This document shows positions 25,091 through 39,866 of a stretch of DNA of 40,325 nt, in pieces. The notes under the pieces are model-generated. The model was not told the DNA's origin, ran no database searches, and saw only the letters and a program-made list of their open reading frames with translations. How positions within the stretch are numbered: position 1 is the first letter of the stretch; each line of letters begins with the position of its first letter. A program made the position numbers and the translations under genes. This stretch comes from a virus: the UHGV virus genome UHGV-0382853. One strand, 5' to 3'.

Positions 25091-25321
25091 TCATGAGTAG
25101 AAGAAGTATGCCAGTTCTGCTTTTGAGCGCAGCCATTGTCTTGATTTACAGGCTTTAAAAAGCCCATTCATCAATACCTTACCTGGCATTTTGCGCTTAC
25201 CTGTTAAGTGAGTCTGGATATAGTGACTCGTCGTTCCGGCTTCCTGTGCGAAGGCTTCACGCTCATCCGGAGTAAGTGCAAGCCAGTGCTTTTTGAAATC
25301 GAAATGTCCGTTATCGCTCAT
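25091..25321 (-). CDS. Cro-like HTH regulator
   Basis: 76 aa, HTH-like segment TPDEREAFAQEAGTTSHYIQ; divergent from the repressor; first gene of the operon containing O and P. Confidence 0.5.
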   Translation of the reverse strand: MSDNGHFDFKKHWLALTPDEREAFAQEAGTTSHYIQTHLTGKRKMPGKVLMNGLFKACKSRQWLRSKAELAYFFYS

Positions 25322-25357
25322 AGCTATTGCCTGATATTTATTTCAGATAATAAATAT

Positions 25358-25372
25358 TCACCTATAAGGTAA
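25358..25372. promoter_or_regulatory. operator-like palindrome in immunity region
   Basis: tcacctataaggtaa (one-mismatch variant). Confidence 0.45.
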
Positions 25373-25405
25373 CAAAAATCAAGGATAGTTACCCATGAGG
25401 TGCAT

Positions 25406-25420
25406 TTACCTGTTGGGTAA
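25406..25420. promoter_or_regulatory. operator-like palindrome in immunity region
   Basis: ttacctgttgggtaa; an additional partial site ttacccatgaggtgc lies at about 25390-25404. Confidence 0.5.
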
Positions 25421-25475
25421 TATTGCTTTAAATTGAATCATCTTCTGATTCAGATATGAGGCGATTTTCCAGAAA

Positions 25476-26060
25476 ATGAAAAGTATCCAGGACGTCCGCA
25501 GGCAAAATCTCAACGACTTGATCGACCGTGAATTCAATGGTGTTCAGACGCGGATGGCTGAAAAACTTGGAACTCAGGCAAATCTGGTAAACCGCTGGGC
25601 TCTTGGCAAGAAGGTTATCGGCGACCAGGTTGCGCGAAAAATTGAAGCTGCCGCCAATAAACCCCGTAACTGGCTTGATATCGATCGCTCGCTTTCTCAG
25701 GAAGGTTTTCAGCCTGTCGGACCAAGCGACATTGGTCAACTGGCGGCTCACAACCTGAAACGCTGGATGAGCGAAAGCCGCGACCTTTCAACGCAGGGAA
25801 AACTTCACCGCGCATCCGGCGTCGCCCAGGTAACAATCAGTCGCCTGTTAAACAATGAGGTCAGCGTTTCCATTTCCACCCTGGAGAATGTTGCATCCGC
25901 ATTCGGGCGTCACGGCTATGAATTACTGATTCACCCGCACGACCCTGCGACCATCAACTATGACCGCTCGCGCTACGCATTGTTACCCGAAACCGAGAAA
26001 GCAAAGATCGAAAGTTACATTGAATTTGTCATCAACCAGAACGAAAAAAACAAACAATAA
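25476..26060 (+). CDS. phage repressor, tandem-HTH type with no recognisable peptidase (autocleavage) domain
   Basis: 194 aa; two HTH-like segments (QTRMAEKLGTQANLVNRWALGKK and LHRASGVAQVTISRLLNNEVS); no S24-like Ser/Lys motifs seen; divergent from cro-like gene. Confidence 0.6.
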   Translation: MKSIQDVRRQNLNDLIDREFNGVQTRMAEKLGTQANLVNRWALGKKVIGDQVARKIEAAANKPRNWLDIDRSLSQEGFQPVGPSDIGQLAAHNLKRWMSESRDLSTQGKLHRASGVAQVTISRLLNNEVSVSISTLENVASAFGRHGYELLIHPHDPATINYDRSRYALLPETEKAKIESYIEFVINQNEKNKQ

Positions 26061-33679: not shown

Positions 33680-33976
33680 TCAAATAGAGAAATAAACACA
33701 AAAACAAAAAACAACAGGAACAGCAAAATCCAACAGACTTCCCACATCCCACACGCGTGGATCAAAACCTCCCCACCACGGCATGTTGATACGTTTCCCT
33801 TTCCCAAACTTTTCTATCCAGCGATATTCTGCCTGGGTGTGTTCACGCGCAATGAAGAACGTACAACCGGCTATCGCACCGTAAGCCCAGTTTCCGGTAA
33901 AAATACCAACCAGTACCTGAGCCACAAAAGCGCAAAGCGAGTGAAGAAATGGAGTGACATCAATGCTCTTAATCAT
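33680..33976 (-). CDS. small membrane protein co-transcribed with tailspike
   Basis: 98 aa, two hydrophobic segments; ATG overlaps the tailspike stop (ATGA). Confidence 0.45.
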   Translation of the reverse strand: MIKSIDVTPFLHSLCAFVAQVLVGIFTGNWAYGAIAGCTFFIAREHTQAEYRWIEKFGKGKRINMPWWGGFDPRVWDVGSLLDFAVPVVFCFCVYFSI

Positions 33977-36162
33977 GAAACTTCCCCATTGGTTGAAAAT
34001 ATGGCTCCTCCAACGCCAAGTGTATTTCGTGTTGTGCTCAACCTCAGAGGGCTGGAGTCAGAATTAGAATATCCTGTAGCAGAAATAAAAGATCCTCCAC
34101 TAATAGTCAACTGCGGAACATCGGCTATATCTGAATAAGTTCTGTCAGCAACAGTATTATTTATAGCCACATATGATCCAAAAAAACTTCTTATTGTTTG
34201 GTTTTTAACTTTACTTCCTTCAATGGTTATCCTACTACCACAGTCGGCAATAAATCCTGAATCTGCATCCAGCGTTGCATTCATAAAAGAAGCTTCAGAT
34301 CTCTCTACATCAATCCATCTAATATCTTTTGTGGGATTTGCACCAAATACATGACAAATATTAGAGTTAAACCTTACACCATCTTGGAGGTGCATTAATT
34401 TTTTTATATCTGTACCCCATAGCCTTGGAAAATTAACAGATGCTCCTGCATGGCAATCAAATCCCAGCTCAGCCCCTGAGATATCTACAGCCTTTCCTGA
34501 AATAACAGCACCAGTGTCTGCATTAACGGCTGTTCCACAATTGCGCATATCATTACCAGCAACATCAACGCAACCCGCACCATCAATACGCACACCAAGT
34601 GCACATCCATAAAAACCTTTTTCAATATTTGGTTCAAGGACTTTACCACTTGTTTCTGCATCACTTTCTTCAACGTCATGTCGTCTTGCATCAACATATG
34701 CTGTATGAATGCAGGTTAATCCACGATATGAGCAATGTATAGTTTTATGGTCGCGTATATTAACATTTGAACCATCTCTTACATTCCATCCTATATAACA
34801 ATAGCTTGCACTTGACCCCTGAAAATCTGCTTTAACATTATAAATACAATTAACTGACGCAACCGTACTCTCTGTGCACCGTTCAAACTTGCTTACAGGC
34901 ATTGATGCCTTGACATTATTTACCAGTTGCAGGGAAGAGTATCTGCTATAAGAAAAATCACATACGTAATACCCTTCTGGCATATATGCAGCAACACTTT
35001 CCTCATCAGGAGCACATCCGGTATGATATGCACTAATTTTTGCACCAAAACTACCATGAATTCCAACGTAGAACTTTCGAGCACCTGAATACGGATAGAA
35101 ATTAAGTTCAGCTTTTTGAGTTACAATAAATGCACAAACATCGCTATCATCTCTATTTTCTTCGATCTGAATAGCAAATACAGGACTTTTTGCTGCATCG
35201 CAAATGTAAAATAAATACTTGTATTCGTAATACGTTCTAACGATTTTAGTAAACAAACGAGTGTCAGAGAAAACCACTGAGTCTTCTGATGTTATTTTAA
35301 TCCAAGACAAATCAACACCTGAACTGAATTCAATTTGATAGTTGATAATATGCCCGGTCTTAATTCTTATTTCGCAGAAAGCATTACCACCATCCCACAT
35401 AGGTCTCATTGACTGGGCTGCAATGATTGCATCTTTGAGTGTAGGGTAATCACCCCATTCGCCAACAGTAATAACAAAAGTATAATATGAGTTAAAAACA
35501 GCGGCATTTTTGCCTTTGGATATCAACTCCTTAATCATAAAAATATTATCTTCGTAATCACAAGGAGAAATTATATCCCTCATTTTGCTTTGAAATGTTC
35601 GTTGTCTTGCCCCGCTTCCTGACGGTATAAACCAACCAAAACCACCAACAACCCCGGCGATTGCAGCATCGACATAATTACGCATTGAGCGATTATTTAC
35701 AGCATCCTGCTCAAGTGATGGATCTGCAAGGTTAGAAATTCTGTTTTGCTTTGCATCGTAATATTTTGCAAGCAGAGAGGGCTTCATCAATGCACGTCTG
35801 AACCACCCAAAACATTGCTGGATCAGCATCGTCAGGTAGTCAAAGGCATCTTCATGCACTTCGGGGAAAAATTTTCCCTGATTGCGAAGGTCTGTCTCCT
35901 GCACTACATCAAGCACACGATCTATCGTAATTCGCCATCCAGTAGCAAGCGGAGACGGAAGAACCACAGAACCGCCACTATAAGTGCCCGCCCCAGTTAC
36001 CGTATAACCGGTATCCAGGACCAATTCTGTTACGTTCCCGTTCAGGTCAGACACCTGAACAACCAGGTCTGATTTTCTGAAAATTCGAAAAGTATACGGA
36101 AACGATGTCGTAACGCCGTTACCGGTGTATTCGTTGTGGTCAACTTCGGTTGAGACCGTCAT
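33973..36162 (-). CDS. tailspike / tail fibre with conserved N-terminal anchor and probable beta-helix depolymerase C-terminal domain
   Basis: 729 aa; N-terminus ...YTGNGVTTSFPYTF...LDTGYTV...ITIDRVL...ETDLRNQG resembles podoviral tail-fibre N-terminal domain; the C-terminal two thirds are AT-rich with Cys/Asn/Ser/Gly-rich repeats. Confidence 0.65.
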   Translation of the reverse strand: MTVSTEVDHNEYTGNGVTTSFPYTFRIFRKSDLVVQVSDLNGNVTELVLDTGYTVTGAGTYSGGSVVLPSPLATGWRITIDRVLDVVQETDLRNQGKFFPEVHEDAFDYLTMLIQQCFGWFRRALMKPSLLAKYYDAKQNRISNLADPSLEQDAVNNRSMRNYVDAAIAGVVGGFGWFIPSGSGARQRTFQSKMRDIISPCDYEDNIFMIKELISKGKNAAVFNSYYTFVITVGEWGDYPTLKDAIIAAQSMRPMWDGGNAFCEIRIKTGHIINYQIEFSSGVDLSWIKITSEDSVVFSDTRLFTKIVRTYYEYKYLFYICDAAKSPVFAIQIEENRDDSDVCAFIVTQKAELNFYPYSGARKFYVGIHGSFGAKISAYHTGCAPDEESVAAYMPEGYYVCDFSYSRYSSLQLVNNVKASMPVSKFERCTESTVASVNCIYNVKADFQGSSASYCYIGWNVRDGSNVNIRDHKTIHCSYRGLTCIHTAYVDARRHDVEESDAETSGKVLEPNIEKGFYGCALGVRIDGAGCVDVAGNDMRNCGTAVNADTGAVISGKAVDISGAELGFDCHAGASVNFPRLWGTDIKKLMHLQDGVRFNSNICHVFGANPTKDIRWIDVERSEASFMNATLDADSGFIADCGSRITIEGSKVKNQTIRSFFGSYVAINNTVADRTYSDIADVPQLTISGGSFISATGYSNSDSSPLRLSTTRNTLGVGGAIFSTNGEVS

Positions 36163-36266
36163 GTTAAATCTCCAGATAGTCGCAGCACCCGTTGCGCCGC
36201 ATATCTGGTTATTCTATTACCTGAAAAACCACATATGGATAAAAAGGCTGTAAATACGAATAGATA

Positions 36267-36281
36267 TTACCTTTCAGGTAA
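36267..36281. promoter_or_regulatory. operator-like palindrome between tailspike and antirepressor
   Basis: ttacctttcaggtaa; half-site ttacctgaa at about 36217. Confidence 0.5.
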
Positions 36282-36320
36282 TTTGCAAAACGTGCTGGAT
36301 AGCAAACAAATTATTTGCTA

Positions 36321-36336
36321 CTGTATAAATATACAG
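36321..36336. promoter_or_regulatory. LexA (SOS) box
   Basis: taCTGTataaatatACAGtt: exact CTGT-N8-ACAG with AT-rich spacer, 22 bp upstream of the ATG at 36358. Confidence 0.75.
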
Positions 36337-36357
36337 TTATTGCATGGAGAAGATAAG

Positions 36358-36615
36358 ATGCAGCGGTATCACTATCCACTGGAAGACGGATTTACCGAAA
36401 GGATTCACACGCCGGGAGGCGTCAGGTCACTGGTGGAGGGATCGCACTTGATGAAATTACTCCGGGATCTCGATAAGGATGGATTTAATGTCGATGGCCC
36501 ACTTGCCGAACTGACTGCACTGATTAACTACGTTACCAGCTCACAGATGTCTATGCGGGATCTGCAAACACATCTCGACTATTGTGCCGAACAATTACGA
36601 AAACAAACCCGGTAA
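36358..36615 (+). CDS. small antirepressor-like protein, paralog of the C-terminal domain of the AntA-type antirepressor
   Basis: 85 aa from ATG 36358 (GGAGAAG SD); aligns with the C-terminus of the 37766..38422 product (IH.P.GV...LM.LL..L..DG..V.G..AELT...LRD.QTH); the track start 36235 lies upstream of the LexA box and is discarded. Confidence 0.6.
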   Translation: MQRYHYPLEDGFTERIHTPGGVRSLVEGSHLMKLLRDLDKDGFNVDGPLAELTALINYVTSSQMSMRDLQTHLDYCAEQLRKQTR

Positions 36616-36622
36616 ATTTAAA

Positions 36623-36638
36623 GGCCGCAAGAGCGGCC
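36623..36638. terminator. bidirectional terminator hairpin
   Basis: ggccgc-aaga-gcggcc flanked by T-rich sequence on both strands; between convergent genes. Confidence 0.5.
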
Positions 36639-37366
36639 TATCGTTTCGCTTTGTGCTCGTCCCAGCACGTTTTGCACCATGCCATTAAGCCATCCGCATT
36701 TTGATTATTAGGGTAAAAGCTTGTTCGTTTTCTGCGGACATTACAAATTGGGCACCACTTCATATGGCGTGTATTCTTTGGGCCATCGAGACACCTTGCA
36801 CACCACTTAGTCAATCCATCTGGATTTTTTGACGATTTCCTGAATTTTTCATATGGTAGGTTTATTCTGCATCGCAAGCACTGCTTGCTACCACTTGAAA
36901 CTCTGTTAGCTGATTCTTCTTTTGGCGGCGATACAGAAGGTATTCTTGCTGGCTCTGATACTGCCTGAGGTGCTTTTTTAGATGACTGAGACGATATGTC
37001 ATCACCAGGGAATCTTCCATGATATGCCGGACGCATTGACACTCCAGGTGGAAGCTCAGCTGTAAACGGCTTTGGCTGAATCAGTTGCCTCTCTTTTGCT
37101 AACTCCTGCTGTTTATAATATGTCTGGATTACCGCACTATCATAAGCAGGAGGTGCGGAAATATTAGGCGCATTACCTCCAGTTTTTTGAAACTGAGTAG
37201 AGGTGTGTTCTATCACCTGTGTACGATTAATCGTTATCTCCCCATCTTCGGTCTTTATCGTTTTGTTATGATTAACGACCGTACGATCAGAGATCTTAGT
37301 CTTGTTCTGGTTGATAACGTAAATAATCACCGCAACCACACCAACAACTATCCAGAAAACTTCCAT
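36638..37366 (-). CDS. membrane-anchored protein with duplicated C-terminal zinc-ribbon (CxxC-N-CxxC x2)
   Basis: 242 aa; N-terminal TM helix (FWIVVGVVAVIIYVI); C-terminal repeats C.RC...DGL..WC..C; GAGGAAAA SD. Confidence 0.5.
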   Translation of the reverse strand: MEVFWIVVGVVAVIIYVINQNKTKISDRTVVNHNKTIKTEDGEITINRTQVIEHTSTQFQKTGGNAPNISAPPAYDSAVIQTYYKQQELAKERQLIQPKPFTAELPPGVSMRPAYHGRFPGDDISSQSSKKAPQAVSEPARIPSVSPPKEESANRVSSGSKQCLRCRINLPYEKFRKSSKNPDGLTKWCARCLDGPKNTRHMKWCPICNVRRKRTSFYPNNQNADGLMAWCKTCWDEHKAKR

Positions 37367-37401: not shown

Positions 37402-37479
37402 TATCTTGCTTTCAGGTGATCAAGCGTTAAACGCAATCAACCAAATACGGTTGATTTTAATATTTCTTCGCGTTTATCA

Positions 37480-37494
37480 TTACCTTTGCGGTAA
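37480..37494. promoter_or_regulatory. operator-like palindrome
   Basis: ttacctttgcggtaa at the head of the antirepressor leader. Confidence 0.5.
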
Positions 37495-37765: not shown

Positions 37766-38422
37766 ATGAACGCTCAACTCATCCCCGTATTCAACGGCAC
37801 TATATCTAACGAAACAGCCCTACTTTGTAATGCCCGCGATCTGCACACTTTTTTAGGTGTTAAAAAGGTGTTTGCAGCATGGATTACAAATCGCATATCA
37901 GAATACGAATTCATTGAAAATCAAGACTATATTTTGCTTTCCAATTTGGGAAAGCAAACATCTGGTAGAGGCGGCCACAACCGCAAAGAGTACCACCTCA
38001 CCCTTGATACAGCCAAAGAGCTGGCGATGGTCGAGCGTAACGAAAAAGGTCGCCAGGTGCGACGCTACTTCATTGAATGCGAGAAACGTTTAAGACAACA
38101 AGAAACAAAAGTGGAGAAGGTCTTGTCAGGCTTCATGCCCGCCATTATGGAGGCGATCAAGCTGGAAGACAAAAAAGAATACAGCGCCCCACTGAAGCCC
38201 GGCTACCGCAGCCTGATTCATTCTCCGTCTGGTGTTCTCGGACTGACGGAGAACTCACTGCTGATGAATCTGCTGAACCAGTTACAGGAAGACGGGCACG
38301 ACGTATCGGGCGCGGCGGCGGAGCTGACCACCATGTTCTGCTACATCGTCGGTGTGAGCAAATGCCTGCGTGATATCCAGACGCACGCGGAGTACATCAA
38401 CGACAAGGCAGGGTTCTTCTGA
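37766..38422 (+). CDS. antirepressor (AntA/AntB N-terminal domain)
   Basis: 218 aa; N-terminal IPVFNGT...LCNARDLHTFLGVKKVFAAWITNRISEYEFIENQDYIL typical of AntA domain; C-terminal domain paralogous to the 36358 product. Confidence 0.7.
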   Translation: MNAQLIPVFNGTISNETALLCNARDLHTFLGVKKVFAAWITNRISEYEFIENQDYILLSNLGKQTSGRGGHNRKEYHLTLDTAKELAMVERNEKGRQVRRYFIECEKRLRQQETKVEKVLSGFMPAIMEAIKLEDKKEYSAPLKPGYRSLIHSPSGVLGLTENSLLMNLLNQLQEDGHDVSGAAAELTTMFCYIVGVSKCLRDIQTHAEYINDKAGFF

Positions 38423-38431
38423 CAGAACGGC

Positions 38432-38453
38432 GGCACAGGGATGTGCCTTTAAA
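38432..38453 (+). terminator. possible terminator after antirepressor
   Basis: ggcaca-ggga-tgtgcc followed by tttaaata. Confidence 0.4.
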
Positions 38454-38495
38454 TAATTCTGTACAGATTGCAGACCGGGGGTGAATAGCGTACTA

Positions 38496-38510
38496 TTACC
38501 TTAAAGGTAA
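38496..38510. promoter_or_regulatory. operator-like palindrome
   Basis: ttaccttaaaggtaa, about 26 bp upstream of the ATG at 38537. Confidence 0.5.
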
Positions 38511-38536
38511 ACCATGTGTTTACATGAGGAGGAGAT

Positions 38537-38746
38537 ATGGGATTTTGGTTCGCTCGTACAAAAACGAGGGATAATGCACCCAGCCCTCAGGCAAAAAATG
38601 CAGAAGTTCCGGCGTCAGCGCAGGTTAACAAGCGTGGTGGTGTGTATATCTCATCACAGCAAATTTCTGAGCTTCCTGAGGTTAAGGAGATGCGTCGTCT
38701 CGCTGCTGCAATCGTTAAACAGGATCTTGCCACTGTAAGGAAATAG
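38537..38746 (+). CDS. small hydrophilic protein
   Basis: 69 aa; strong SD GAGGAGG 5 nt upstream; stop overlaps the next gene's GTG start. Confidence 0.45.
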   Translation: MGFWFARTKTRDNAPSPQAKNAEVPASAQVNKRGGVYISSQQISELPEVKEMRRLAAAIVKQDLATVRK

Positions 38747-39612
38747 TGTTGTTAGCTCTTCTAATTATCCCCATTCTGGTTAGTGGTTATATTATGATAA
38801 CCGCTAACCAGTATCATTATTTCCGTTTATACCGACATGAAGGCCAGCTTCTTTATATGAAAGTAGCTGCATTAGGTACATATTGCCTTGTTGCTTCGGT
38901 AATAATTGCCGCATTTATAAAATATAAATATCCTGATTTTCACCTAGTTCACGATATGGTGGAAACTTTTAATGTAACGTCAAAACCAGAAACAGATAGA
39001 ATTTACATGTGGCTGCTTCTTCTCTCAGCCACATCCATTTGCTTCTCTTTGTGTTATGTGTCTGTTGTGTGGGTGAAAGATTTTCTTCTTGGTTGTTTTT
39101 ATAAACGTGATATTTACGAGCAAAAAACAGAGGCAATGAAGGCCAGAGTACTGCGAAAAACTTACTCGCAAGGTTCTTTAGACTTACTATTGCTTGATGC
39201 TATTGAATCGGATCCTAAACGACCAATGCTGATTACTTTATCATCAAACAAAGTGTATGTTGGAATAATAAATGGTTCTGGTGAACCAACGGAAAATCAG
39301 GGTCCGCATCAGCACATATCTTTTGTTCCTTTAATGTCAGGATACAGGAACAAAGACAACTTATCTGTCACATTCACTAATGCTTATCCAGGAGAAATAC
39401 AGGTCAAGCGGACTGCAGCAATAAGAGGAATTAGCAGAAAGAAAGTGCCAGGACTTGAGATCATGGTGTCTATTGACGAAATAAGTTATATATCATGGTT
39501 TGATTTTGAAGTATATAAAGCAACAAATAACAAAGTAGAATCCAGGGGGCACGTTATTCGTGTTACCAAAAATGGAAGAAATATATATCAAAGAAATAGC
39601 AAAAAAGAATAG
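38746..39612 (+). CDS. membrane protein (3 N-terminal TM helices plus about 170-aa soluble domain), AT-rich
   Basis: 288 aa; GTG start coupled to the upstream stop; AT-rich codon usage unlike neighbouring genes; followed by a strong terminator. Confidence 0.5.
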   Translation: MLLALLIIPILVSGYIMITANQYHYFRLYRHEGQLLYMKVAALGTYCLVASVIIAAFIKYKYPDFHLVHDMVETFNVTSKPETDRIYMWLLLLSATSICFSLCYVSVVWVKDFLLGCFYKRDIYEQKTEAMKARVLRKTYSQGSLDLLLLDAIESDPKRPMLITLSSNKVYVGIINGSGEPTENQGPHQHISFVPLMSGYRNKDNLSVTFTNAYPGEIQVKRTAAIRGISRKKVPGLEIMVSIDEISYISWFDFEVYKATNNKVESRGHVIRVTKNGRNIYQRNSKKE

Positions 39613-39633
39613 CCCGCGCTGCGGGCTTTTTTG
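39611..39633 (+). terminator. rho-independent terminator
   Basis: agcccgc-gct-gcgggct followed by ttttttg. Confidence 0.7.
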
Positions 39634-39704: not shown

Positions 39705-39866
39705 ATGAAAAAAGCATTTGCTGCACTGTTCGTTTTGTTGTCTCTGGTAGCTTCAACTCAGGCCTTTGCCGGTCGTTGTCAGCACGACAGCGATACTGCC
39801 GCTGACGGCTCCCGCTGCGGTGGGCGTTCTGCGGATTCCCGCCCGGGTGGCGGTGGCATTCGTTAA
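39705..39866 (+). CDS. small secreted protein
   Basis: 53 aa from the internal ATG (MKKAFAALFVLLSLVASTQAFA signal peptide); weak SD; the track start 39633 adds an unlikely N-terminus. Confidence 0.35.
   Translation: MKKAFAALFVLLSLVASTQAFAGRCQHDSDTAADGSRCGGRSADSRPGGGGIR

What the first reader, a model, noticed from the sequence alone, without database searches (positions are those of the whole stretch)
38496..39633. AT-rich two-gene cassette (69-aa protein plus 288-aa membrane protein): candidate horizontally acquired exclusion/defense or cell-surface conversion module
The 38746..39612 gene is much more AT-rich than the surrounding phage backbone. It is translationally coupled to a small upstream gene with a strong SD, is preceded by an operator-type palindrome and is followed by a strong terminator, so it is an autonomous accessory unit. 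The product has three N-terminal TM helices and a soluble C-terminal domain with no motif I can assign. This architecture is common among superinfection-exclusion, abortive-infection and seroconversion proteins carried by prophages.
Basis: inference. Interest (0 to 1): 0.65.

Follow-up and report, generated by a model that had tools for sequence, protein, structure and literature searches.

The report
Membrane Sm-domain two-gene phage cargo
A temperate E. coli phage carries, in a swappable cargo slot, a conserved two-gene module (a tiny soluble protein plus a membrane protein with an RNA-binding-type "Sm" barrel) that belongs to a large uncharacterised family found in known phage-defence hotspots, so it is a good candidate for a new phage-versus-phage weapon, though its function is untested.

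Summary
Both ORFs (69 aa, 38537-38746; 288 aa, 38746-39612) are real genes under purifying selection. They overlap at ATAGTG and are AT-rich even at synonymous sites. An operator palindrome lies upstream and a strong terminator downstream.

The window is a phiV10-like (Uetakevirus) temperate phage. The cassette is cargo (38512-39602) in a polymorphic slot whose promoter-operator and terminator belong to the phage. Other E. coli prophages carry a YafO toxin pair, DUF4760, DUF2335 or nothing there.

A homologous small gene sat immediately upstream wherever intact upstream sequence was available. The pair sits next to int/att, in the P2 old/tin hotspot beside bSEFIR, and beside CBASS.

The best reading is a membrane-acting phage-conflict module (exclusion or abortive type) with an antitoxin-like partner (about 0.45). 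No evidence supports seroconversion.

One caveat: the palindrome matches the phage's immunity-region operator motif (13 copies). Here the cassette is therefore probably repressed in stable lysogens and expressed early.

The parts
38468..38496 (+). Putative sigma-70 promoter of the slot (-35 TTGCAG 38468-73, 17-nt spacer, -10 TACTAT 38491-96). It belongs to the conserved phage flank, not to the cargo.
   Evidence: Read from the sequence. It matches the consensus at only 7 of 12 positions and was not picked up by the consensus scan. It has the same layout as the ant promoter at 37451-37480, where the last T of the -10 is also the first T of the operator. The region is conserved in TL-2011b, phiv142-3 and strain PKF4, which carry other cargos. 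The promoter is inferred.
38496..38510 (.). Operator palindrome TTACCTTaAAGGTAA, one of 13 copies of the phage's immunity-type operator motif.
   Evidence: Perfect 7-nt arms. The pattern TTACCT-N3-AGGTAA gives 13 hits at one mismatch or fewer, against 0.04 expected. Five hits flank the divergent repressor genes at 25091-26060. Repressor binding is inferred and has not been shown.
38512..39602 (+). Exchangeable cargo segment (the cassette proper).
   Evidence: BLAST homology to TL-2011b and phiv142-3 stops at 38511/12 and resumes at 39602/04. Those phages carry other genes in between.
38537..38746 (+). Gene for a 69-aa soluble basic protein: disordered N-terminus starting MGFWF, then a beta-hairpin and a C-terminal helix (core motif KRGGVYISSQQISELPEVKEMRRLAAAIV).
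   Evidence: ORF. SD GAGGAGGAG at 38526-34. Codon-position bias of 12/5/39. PHROG 5739, function unknown. A homologous small gene precedes the large gene in the 40 or more loci inspected where intact upstream sequence was available. AF2 model pLDDT 67, with a hairpin at 29-37 and helices at 40-44 and 47-68. No hydrophobic segment.
38746..39612 (+). Gene for a 288-aa inner-membrane protein: three TM helices (aa 1-19, 40-58, 90-116; nt 38746-39093), a helical linker, and an Sm-like barrel.
   Evidence: ORF. PHROG 3630, function unknown, E = 6e-114. No Pfam, NCBIfam or PADLOC match. AF2 pLDDT 73.5. Hydropathy and charge distribution suggest N-out/C-in topology (inference). Codon-position bias of 72/43/223.
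38776..38811 (+). Conserved 15-bp hairpin inside the large ORF (codons 11-22), followed by a U-rich tract. Possible attenuator that limits synthesis of the membrane protein.
   Evidence: Flagged as terminator-like. MFE -22.5 kcal/mol, z = -6.9. Retained in homologues down to about 45% amino-acid identity. Covariation at pair 18-31 (UA 7, CG 6); 85% of cells paired against 19-59% when the partner is slid; covariation score 0.262 against 0.220 in shuffles (0 of 500 as high). Its function is inferred.
39166..39531 (+). Region encoding the Sm/LSm-fold domain (aa 141-262): helix 145-154, strands 161-165, 169-178, 190-201, 208-213, a variable disordered insert at 217-236, then strands 239-251. Invariant residues are K169, Y171, S198, G199, R201 and Y214.
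39611..39633 (+). Intrinsic terminator (7-bp GC-rich stem, 3-nt loop, T6). Part of the conserved slot.
   Evidence: Terminator scan. It lies inside the right-hand conserved flank that starts at 39602.

Best explanation
The cassette is a mobile two-gene accessory module inserted as cargo into a polymorphic, repressor-controlled expression slot of a phiV10-like temperate podovirus. I think it most likely acts in conflict between phages, as a superinfection-exclusion or abortive-infection type of protection that works at the inner membrane.

Proposed working (inferred unless marked otherwise):
1. The slot promoter (38468-96) fires whenever the phage repressor is absent or inactivated. That covers fresh infection, induction, and attack by a competitor's antirepressor.
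2. The bicistronic mRNA gives the 69-aa cytoplasmic protein first.
3. Termination-reinitiation at ATAGTG then gives the 288-aa protein. The conserved hairpin at 38776-38811 probably reduces its amount further.
4. The large protein inserts N-out/C-in with three TM helices. Its strongly conserved TM1 (LLIPILVSGY) and GQLLY loop suggest that the membrane part is functional rather than a simple anchor.
5. Its cytoplasmic Sm-like barrels would assemble into a ring under the membrane, as characterised Sm/Hfq proteins do. That would bring many TM helices together.
6. The small hairpin-helix protein binds the cytoplasmic domain and keeps the assembly inactive or tunes it, in the manner of an antitoxin.
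7. A phage cue, or loss of the partner, lets the membrane part either block DNA entry or depolarise the cell.

Shown by the analyses here: the two genes are real and coupled. They form a conserved pair across a large family. The unit is swappable cargo. The soluble domain has a predicted Sm fold. Homologues sit in known defence hotspots.
For: - Accessory and mobile. Only 28 of 435 E. coli records matching the region carry this cargo. The same slot holds a YafO-family toxin pair, DUF4760, DUF2335, tiny ORFs or nothing. GC3 of 0.298 marks it as foreign.
- Conserved pair. A small upstream gene with the same hairpin-helix core is present in Providencia, Citrobacter, Pectobacterium, Yersinia, Arsenophonus, Brachymonas, Bowmanella, Thermoanaerobaculia and metagenomic loci, often overlapping the large gene.
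- Defence-type locations. Homologues lie between int and attP or the prophage end. They lie between gene A and the portal gene of the P2-like phages SEN5 and ST15-OXA48phi14.1, which is the old/tin hotspot; in the latter the neighbour is bSEFIR (PADLOC E = 7e-103). Other copies lie next to bacHORMA/AAA/lipase CBASS genes, next to an N6/N4 methyltransferase, and near an integrase, a transposase and a Phd antitoxin. Neighbour scans also hit MADS components.
- Prior. In P4 satellite hotspots, 6 of 8 randomly chosen unknown-function cargos protected against phages, and 19% of P2 phages have only unknown genes at their defence locus (PMC13586616).
- Architecture. Three TM helices plus a predicted cytoplasmic Sm/WYL-like barrel. 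WYL domains with this fold serve as ligand sensors in the defence regulators BrxR and CapW (listed).
- Toxin-like expression control. The small gene comes first, the start is overlapped, and a conserved hairpin with covariation lies early in the large ORF.
Against: - No experiment exists for any member. The literature searches that bear on this protein family and its accessions found nothing on it.
- No homology to any PADLOC v2 defence model or to P22 SieA (hhalign probability 0.5%).
- The defence association rests on a handful of inspected loci, without a background control.
- In this phage the promoter carries a perfect copy of the immunity-region operator over its -10/+1. The cassette is therefore probably silent in a stable lysogen, which argues against classical lysogen-expressed exclusion.
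- Ring formation, partner binding, topology and membrane activity are all inferred.
Confidence: 0.45

Rival explanations
1. An early lytic-cycle accessory function for the phage itself. Examples are host takeover, counter-defence, or control of lysis or entry during the phage's own infection. It would be expressed only when the repressor is absent and would do nothing for the lysogen.
For: - The operator at 38496-38510 is identical in type to those around the repressor genes and upstream of int and ant.
- It overlaps the putative -10/+1, as at the ant promoter.
- The repressor (99% identical to phiv142-3 Orf43) is the protein whose overexpression blocks lytic growth in the near-identical phage ZX5 (PMC9782041).
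- Early accessory regions of phages often hold counter-defence genes (general knowledge).
Against: - Most closely related phages lack the cassette and are viable.
- Homologous pairs occur outside phages, in chromosomal islands next to CBASS and methyltransferase genes.
- They also occur at int/att and P2 old/tin positions, which typically hold lysogen-expressed genes.
- A membrane protein with a partner is not a typical counter-defence architecture.
Confidence: 0.2
2. A pure toxin-antitoxin or addiction module. The membrane protein is a toxin and the small protein its antitoxin. The pair stabilises the mobile element that carries it and has no specific anti-phage role.
For: - Small gene first, overlapped start, and an expression-limiting hairpin in the second gene.
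- The commonest alternative cargo in the same slot is a small ORF plus a YafO-family toxin.
- One homologue lies beside a Phd antitoxin gene.
- Copies are decaying in the reduced genomes of Arsenophonus endosymbionts.
Against: - The small protein has no recognisable DNA-binding antitoxin fold, and the operator belongs to the phage slot rather than to the cassette.
- The large protein matches no toxin family.
- Many toxin-antitoxin pairs in such hotspots act as abortive-infection defences, so this rival overlaps with the best explanation rather than excluding it.
Confidence: 0.17
3. A cell-surface or serotype-conversion function. The membrane protein would modify or inhibit O-antigen synthesis, as the conversion genes next to the epsilon15 tailspike gene do.
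For: - Position near the tailspike gene in an epsilon15/phiV10-type genome, where conversion genes are known in epsilon15 (general knowledge).
- Inner-membrane location.
Against: - No glycosyltransferase, acyltransferase, GtrA/B, Wzy or Wzz signature.
- Only three TM helices.
- The conserved soluble domain is predicted cytoplasmic and has an Sm-type fold.
- The partner is a cytoplasmic protein.
- The family spans Enterobacterales, Pseudomonas, Betaproteobacteria, Alteromonadales and Acidobacteriota, which have unrelated surface polymers.
- Lysogeny by the closely related phage ZX5 caused no detectable change in the host phenotypes tested, though whether ZX5 carries this cassette was not checked.
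Confidence: 0.03

Closest known systems
Sm/LSm/Hfq fold proteins, including the WYL sensor domains of the defence regulators BrxR, CapW and DriD
   Different: There is no sequence match to the LSM, Hfq or WYL Pfam models. The conserved motifs are different (KVYVG, P-x-E, PLMSGYR, FTN-Y). A 20-residue disordered insert precedes the last strand. The domain is tethered to three TM helices, which known Sm, Hfq and WYL proteins are not. Ring formation and ligand binding are untested.
Pfam DUF6338 (PF19865), an uncharacterised membrane-protein family
   Same: One distant family member found with the family profile (P0208) passes the DUF6338 gathering threshold over its TM region (28.7 against 26.5 bits), and another scores weakly.
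   Different: The window protein and 54 diverse relatives do not match DUF6338 at all. The match covers only the membrane part. DUF6338 has no known function, and the one paper in the library that mentions it (a proteomics study) was not read for functional content.
P22 SieA, and membrane exclusion proteins in general (T4 Imm, HK97 gp15)
   Same: A small inner-membrane protein encoded as an accessory gene in the immI-like region between the tailspike/antirepressor genes and the ejection-protein genes. This is the position sieA occupies in P22.
   Different: No homology (hhalign probability 0.5%). SieA is a single gene with its own annotated promoter and is expressed in lysogens (general knowledge). 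Here there is an obligatory partner gene, a cytoplasmic Sm-like domain and a repressor operator on the promoter.
Cargo of phage defence hotspots (P2 old/tin/fun locus; Rousset et al. 2022, PMC9122126; PMC13586616)
   Same: Homologous pairs occupy exactly that locus, between gene A and the portal gene, in the P2-like phages SEN5 and ST15-OXA48phi14.1. In the latter the pair lies adjacent to bSEFIR. The window's own slot behaves the same way, with at least six alternative states.
   Different: It matches none of the described hotspot systems held in PADLOC v2. No phenotype has been reported.
Type II toxin-antitoxin pairs such as the YafO-family toxin cargo found in the same slot
   Same: Two-gene operon with the small gene first, overlapping the second. 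Same promoter-operator and terminator context.
   Different: The second gene encodes a 288-aa membrane protein, not a ribosome-dependent RNase. The first protein has no known antitoxin fold.
MscS-type mechanosensitive channels (architectural analogy only, from general knowledge)
   Same: About 286 aa, three N-terminal TM helices with N-out/C-in topology, followed by a cytoplasmic beta domain that SCOP classifies as Sm-like. MscS assembles as a heptamer.

Membership tests
Sm/LSm fold (structural superfamily) | N-terminal alpha-helix followed by five strongly bent antiparallel beta-strands forming a small barrel | tested here: met
Sm/LSm fold (structural superfamily) | Sm1/Sm2 sequence motifs, or a match to the LSM or Hfq sequence models | tested here: not met
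   No Pfam LSM, Hfq or WYL hit for the window protein or for 54 relatives. No PDB sequence match.
Sm/LSm fold (structural superfamily) | Hexameric or heptameric ring assembly and nucleic-acid or ligand binding | not testable with these tools
   Only single-chain prediction was available.
Pfam DUF6338 (PF19865) | Score above the Pfam gathering threshold | tested here: not met
   The window protein gives no hit, and none of 54 diverse relatives does. Only the distant relative P0208 passes (28.7 against 26.5 bits, TM region only). A remote superfamily link is possible but unproven.
Known anti-phage defence systems (PADLOC-DB v2.0.0) | Match to a defence-protein HMM | tested here: not met
   No hit for either protein. 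No meaningful hit for 54 relatives; one chance-level AbiEii match at E = 0.009. No hit for the phage homologues in SEN5, ST15-OXA48phi14.1, phiES15 and vB_Pae_U5.
Defence-hotspot cargo (operational class) | Variable gene content between conserved flanks in related mobile elements, with known defence or toxin genes as alternative or neighbouring cargo | tested here: met
   Cargo boundaries at 38512 and 39602. Alternative cargos are YafO toxin, DUF4760, DUF2335 or an empty slot. Homologues lie in the P2 hotspot next to bSEFIR and next to CBASS genes.
Defence-hotspot cargo (operational class) | Experimentally measured protection against phages | not testable with these tools
   No report was found in the literature searches that bear on the family or its accessions.
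P22 SieA-type superinfection exclusion | Sequence homology to SieA | tested here: not met
   hhalign of the family profile against P22 SieA gives probability 0.5% and E = 0.11.
P22 SieA-type superinfection exclusion | Expression from the prophage in lysogens | tested here: inconclusive
   No expression data. The promoter carries a perfect copy of the immunity-region operator over its -10/+1, which argues for repression in lysogens. Binding has not been shown.
Type II toxin-antitoxin module | Small antitoxin gene first, overlapping or adjacent toxin gene, co-transcribed | tested here: met
   ATAGTG overlap, a single promoter and a single terminator. This gene order is conserved in every locus where intact upstream sequence was available.
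Type II toxin-antitoxin module | Recognisable toxin family, and an antitoxin with a DNA-binding domain that autoregulates through its own operator | tested here: not met
   No family match for either protein. The operator lies in the conserved phage flank shared with other cargos.
Serotype-conversion genes (Gtr, O-acetyltransferase, Wzy or its inhibitors) | Glycosyltransferase, acyltransferase_3, GtrA or Wzy domains, or ten or more TM helices | tested here: not met
   No such Pfam or NCBIfam hits. Three hydrophobic segments only.
MscS-like channels | MS_channel sequence model, or a structural match to the MscS TM3-beta domain unit | tested here: not met

The most novel reading that the evidence does not exclude
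The pair defines a new, widespread anti-phage system. A membrane-tethered ring of Sm-like barrels would sense a phage-derived nucleic acid or small ligand at the cytoplasmic face of the inner membrane, possibly at the site of genome entry. It would then convert its 18-21 TM helices into a pore or an entry block. The small hairpin-helix protein would act as its gatekeeper. In phiV10-type phages the system would be wired to the prophage repressor, so that it fires only when immunity is breached.
Probability: 0.2. Interest if true: 0.8.

Novelty: new variant of a known kind. Interest (0 to 1): 0.55.

Why it matters
If the prediction holds, this would add a large family to the catalogue of phage-conflict systems. 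The family has about 2,300 cluster representatives at 50% identity. It has no matching Pfam model beyond a marginal link to DUF6338 and no PADLOC model.

The domain logic would also be unusual. An Sm/Hfq-type barrel is normally a soluble nucleic-acid-binding ring. Here it is anchored to the membrane and paired with a dedicated small partner.

The window gives a natural experimental handle. The cargo slot has conserved flanks and at least six alternative states, and the promoter appears to be wired to the prophage repressor. That raises a testable idea: some prophage cargo is armed by loss of immunity rather than expressed constitutively. The conserved in-ORF hairpin is a candidate dosage control for a potentially toxic membrane protein.

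Tried and rejected
- Sequence families: Pfam, NCBIfam, PADLOC and PDB sequence searches on both proteins and on family alignments found nothing usable.
- PHROGs only gave unknown-function families 3630 and 5739.
- Foldseek against viral BFVD returned only uncharacterised or Sm-like small proteins.
- The afdb50 library was unavailable.
- Homology to P22 SieA was tested and rejected.
- The search for related loci with the diverse alignment A2 failed for lack of a conserved stretch. The narrower A1 worked.
- Nine literature searches were run. Five bore directly on this protein family or its accessions: the RefSeq/PHROG accessions, Sm-like + defence, LSm + anti-phage, Sm-like + abortive infection, and DUF6338. 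The other four covered prophage-defence hotspots, phiV10/Uetakevirus biology, prophage defence arsenals and the alternative cargo domains DUF4760/DUF2335. None found any study of this family.
- Longer family members (336-401 aa) were checked for fusion with the small protein. They only have loop insertions or extra TM helices.
- The overlapping 74-aa ORF (38514-38738) was rejected as non-coding by codon-position statistics.
- The seroconversion, holin and MscS readings were considered and set aside; see the rival explanations and the membership test.
Full report
**Where the window comes from.** The window is essentially a complete genome of a phiV10/phiv142-3-like temperate podovirus (genus Uetakevirus) of E. 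coli. Its first 25 kb match phiv142-3, PAS61, ZX5 and phiV10 at about 98% identity. The cassette region is 100% identical to a prophage in E. coli strain CE0007a. The local gene order is tailspike (33973-36162, minus strand), a 242-aa gene (minus strand), antirepressor Ant (37766-38422), the cassette, a 53-aa secreted-peptide gene (39705-39866) and a 98-aa membrane-protein gene.

**The observation.**
- The 69-aa ORF (38537-38746) follows GAGGAGGAG.
- The 288-aa ORF (38746-39612) starts at a GTG that shares a base with the upstream TAG.
- A perfect 7-1-7 palindrome lies at 38496-38510.
- A GC-rich hairpin followed by T6 lies at 39611-39633.
- The large gene is 36% GC with GC3 of 0.30, against GC3 of 0.45-0.59 for five other phage genes measured. 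The small gene is not AT-rich.
- Across 14 distinct homologous DNA sequences, substitutions concentrate at third codon positions in both frames (12/5/39 and 72/43/223). In the overlapping 74-aa ORF they fall on position 2, so the two annotated genes are the real ones.

**It is cargo in a slot.** BLAST against phages TL-2011b and phiv142-3 shows the flanks are conserved up to 38511/12 and from 39602/04 onwards, while the interior differs.
- TL-2011b carries a 59-aa ORF plus a YafO-family toxin.
- phiv142-3 carries two tiny ORFs.
- Other E. coli prophages carry DUF4760, a 108-aa ORF plus DUF2335, or an empty junction.
- Only 28 of 435 E. coli records that match the region contain this cargo.

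The putative promoter, the palindrome and the terminator therefore belong to the phage's slot. The cassette proper is 38512-39602.

**The palindrome is the phage's operator.** TTACCT-N3-AGGTAA occurs 13 times at one mismatch or fewer, against 0.04 expected.
- Five copies surround a divergent pair of repressor-type genes: 25091-25321 (minus strand, 76 aa) and 25476-26060 (plus strand, 194 aa).
- The 194-aa protein is 99% identical to phiv142-3 Orf43.
- A published study reports that this protein has the same sequence as the ZX5 repressor, whose overexpression abolishes lytic growth (PMC9782041).
- The remaining copies lie in intergenic regions upstream of int, ant, the 242-aa gene, a 126-aa gene and the cassette.
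- At both the ant and the cassette promoters, the last T of the -10 hexamer is the first T of the operator.

I infer that the cassette belongs to the repressor regulon. It would be silent in a stable lysogen and expressed on infection, on induction, or whenever the repressor is inactivated. Binding has not been demonstrated.

**The large protein.** It has three hydrophobic segments (aa 1-19, 40-58, 90-116). The charge distribution fits N-out/C-in topology, which would put the C-terminal half in the cytoplasm (inference).

No Pfam, NCBIfam, PADLOC or PDB sequence match exists.

**The family.** The word-indexed search found only 28 clusters, all in Enterobacterales and all labelled 'hypothetical'. 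A profile search of 1.84 billion cluster representatives found 2,333 at E <= 1e-3 and 897 at E <= 1e-10.

In a 54-sequence alignment with 26% mean column identity, the invariant residues are Y37, K169, Y171, S198, G199, R201 and Y214. TM1 (L6, L11, G14) and the G33/L36 loop are nearly invariant. None of these 54 proteins matches any relevant Pfam or PADLOC model. One distant member passes Pfam DUF6338 over its TM region. The only paper in the library that mentions that family is a proteomics study, which I did not read for functional content.

**The small protein and the pair.** The 69-aa protein has no hydrophobic segment. AF2 (pLDDT 67) predicts a disordered N-terminus, a short hairpin and a long C-terminal helix.

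A gene of 57-112 aa immediately upstream of the large gene is present in every locus where intact upstream sequence is available. Nearly all share the core pattern h-V-x-x-x-G-x-h-x-h followed by an amphipathic helix. Many also share an aromatic N-terminal motif (MGFWF, MFGWL, KWLWG). The hosts include Providencia, Citrobacter, Pectobacterium, Yersinia, Arsenophonus, Symbiopectobacterium, Brachymonas, Bowmanella, a Thermoanaerobaculia MAG and marine metagenomes. The one clear outlier is the Acidobacteria MAG locus L024, where the only upstream ORF found has no recognisable core motif. This is therefore a conserved two-gene module. It has no family or PDB match.

**Genomic contexts of homologues.**
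- The same Uetakevirus-type slot in Providencia.
- Convergent with int at the prophage end in Citrobacter and Pectobacterium.
- Between int and attP in Cronobacter phage phiES15.
- Between gene A and the portal gene (the P2 old/tin hotspot) in Salmonella phage SEN5 and Klebsiella phage ST15-OXA48phi14.1. In the latter it lies directly beside a bSEFIR defence gene.
- Next to bacHORMA/AAA/lipase CBASS genes.
- Next to an N6/N4 methyltransferase between gyrB and recF.
- Near an integrase, a transposase and a Phd antitoxin.

A scan of 145 neighbouring proteins found integrases, P2 gene A, MADS components, methyltransferases and bSEFIR. There is no control set, so this is supportive rather than statistical. 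A recent survey found that 6 of 8 unknown-function cargos in P4 satellite hotspots protect against phages (PMC13586616), which raises the prior.

**A conserved hairpin.** Inside the large ORF, 38776-38811 forms a 15-bp hairpin (-22.5 kcal/mol, z = -6.9) followed by a U-rich tract. Homologues down to about 45% amino-acid identity keep it. The synonymous third base of the Gly codon covaries with the first base of the Thr/Ile/Val codon it pairs with (UA 7, CG 6). 85% of cells are paired, against 19-59% when the partner is slid. The covariation score exceeds all 500 shuffles. More distant relatives lack it. I read it as an attenuator or translation brake that keeps the membrane protein scarce relative to its partner. 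This is inference.

**Interpretation.** The evidence fits a mobile, membrane-acting conflict module with an antitoxin-like partner (confidence 0.45). The rivals are:
- an early function for the phage itself, favoured by the operator (0.20);
- a pure addiction module (0.17);
- seroconversion (0.03), which the domain content, the predicted topology and the host range all argue against.

It is not a member of any known defence, toxin, SieA, MscS or conversion family. It resembles them in position, operon form or gross architecture only.

**Limits.** Function, topology, oligomeric state, partner binding, promoter activity and repressor binding are all inferred. The fold assignment rests on a medium-confidence model. 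The defence association rests on about a dozen inspected loci.

Noticed in passing
window 16134, 23013, 23075, 25021, 25358, 25406, 26118, 26180, 31405, 36267, 37387, 37480, 38496 (15-nt sites): A genome-wide operator motif, TTACCT-N3-AGGTAA, gives 13 hits at one mismatch or fewer against 0.04 expected. It clusters around the divergent repressor genes (25091-26060) and also precedes int, ant, the 242-aa gene, a 126-aa gene and the cassette. This suggests one repressor controls many separate transcription units, including the accessory ones.
   Followed up: partly
window 38776-38811: A 15-bp hairpin lies inside the coding region for TM1 of the 288-aa protein. It is conserved with covariation in homologues down to about 45% amino-acid identity and is followed by a U-rich tract. 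It may be an attenuator or a translation brake.
   Followed up: partly
window 38512-39602; loci L002, L003, L066, L067, L068: The slot between the ant/BRO gene and the 53-aa peptide gene is a cargo hotspot in E. coli Uetakevirus-like prophages. Alternative states are a YafO-family toxin plus a small ORF (the commonest in the sampled rows), DUF4760, a 108-aa ORF plus DUF2335, two tiny ORFs, or an empty slot.
   Followed up: partly
window 36638-37366 (-): A 242-aa protein with an N-terminal hydrophobic segment and two C-terminal Cys-rich repeats. The repeats hit PHROG endonuclease VII, HNH and Lar-like families and weakly hit Pfam Stc1. The gene is in an AT-rich region with a perfect operator copy (37387) just upstream. 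Function unknown.
   Followed up: no
window 39705-39866 (+): A 53-aa protein with a signal-peptide-like N-terminus (MKKAFAALFVLLSLVASTQAFA) and Cys/Gly-rich tail (PHROG 14503, 'membrane associated protein', moron category). It is retained in every state of the slot, including the empty one, so it is not part of the cassette.
   Followed up: partly
window 33973-36162 (-): The tailspike gene is as AT-rich as the cassette (GC 0.40, GC3 0.29). Together with the GC dip at 33.5-37.5 kb, this fits a separately exchanged receptor-binding module.
   Followed up: no
window 36235-36615 (+) and 38147-38446: A 126-aa ORF carries the same C-terminal domain as Ant (PHROG 450/15539). The Ant C-terminal coding segment also recurs in inverted orientation in TL-2011b and CE0007a. 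This indicates shuffling of antirepressor modules around the slot.
   Followed up: no
loci L019, L021, L023 (Arsenophonus endosymbionts): In these reduced symbiont genomes the large gene is truncated or lacks a start, while in at least one of them (L021) the small gene is still intact. This suggests the module is decaying there.
   Followed up: no
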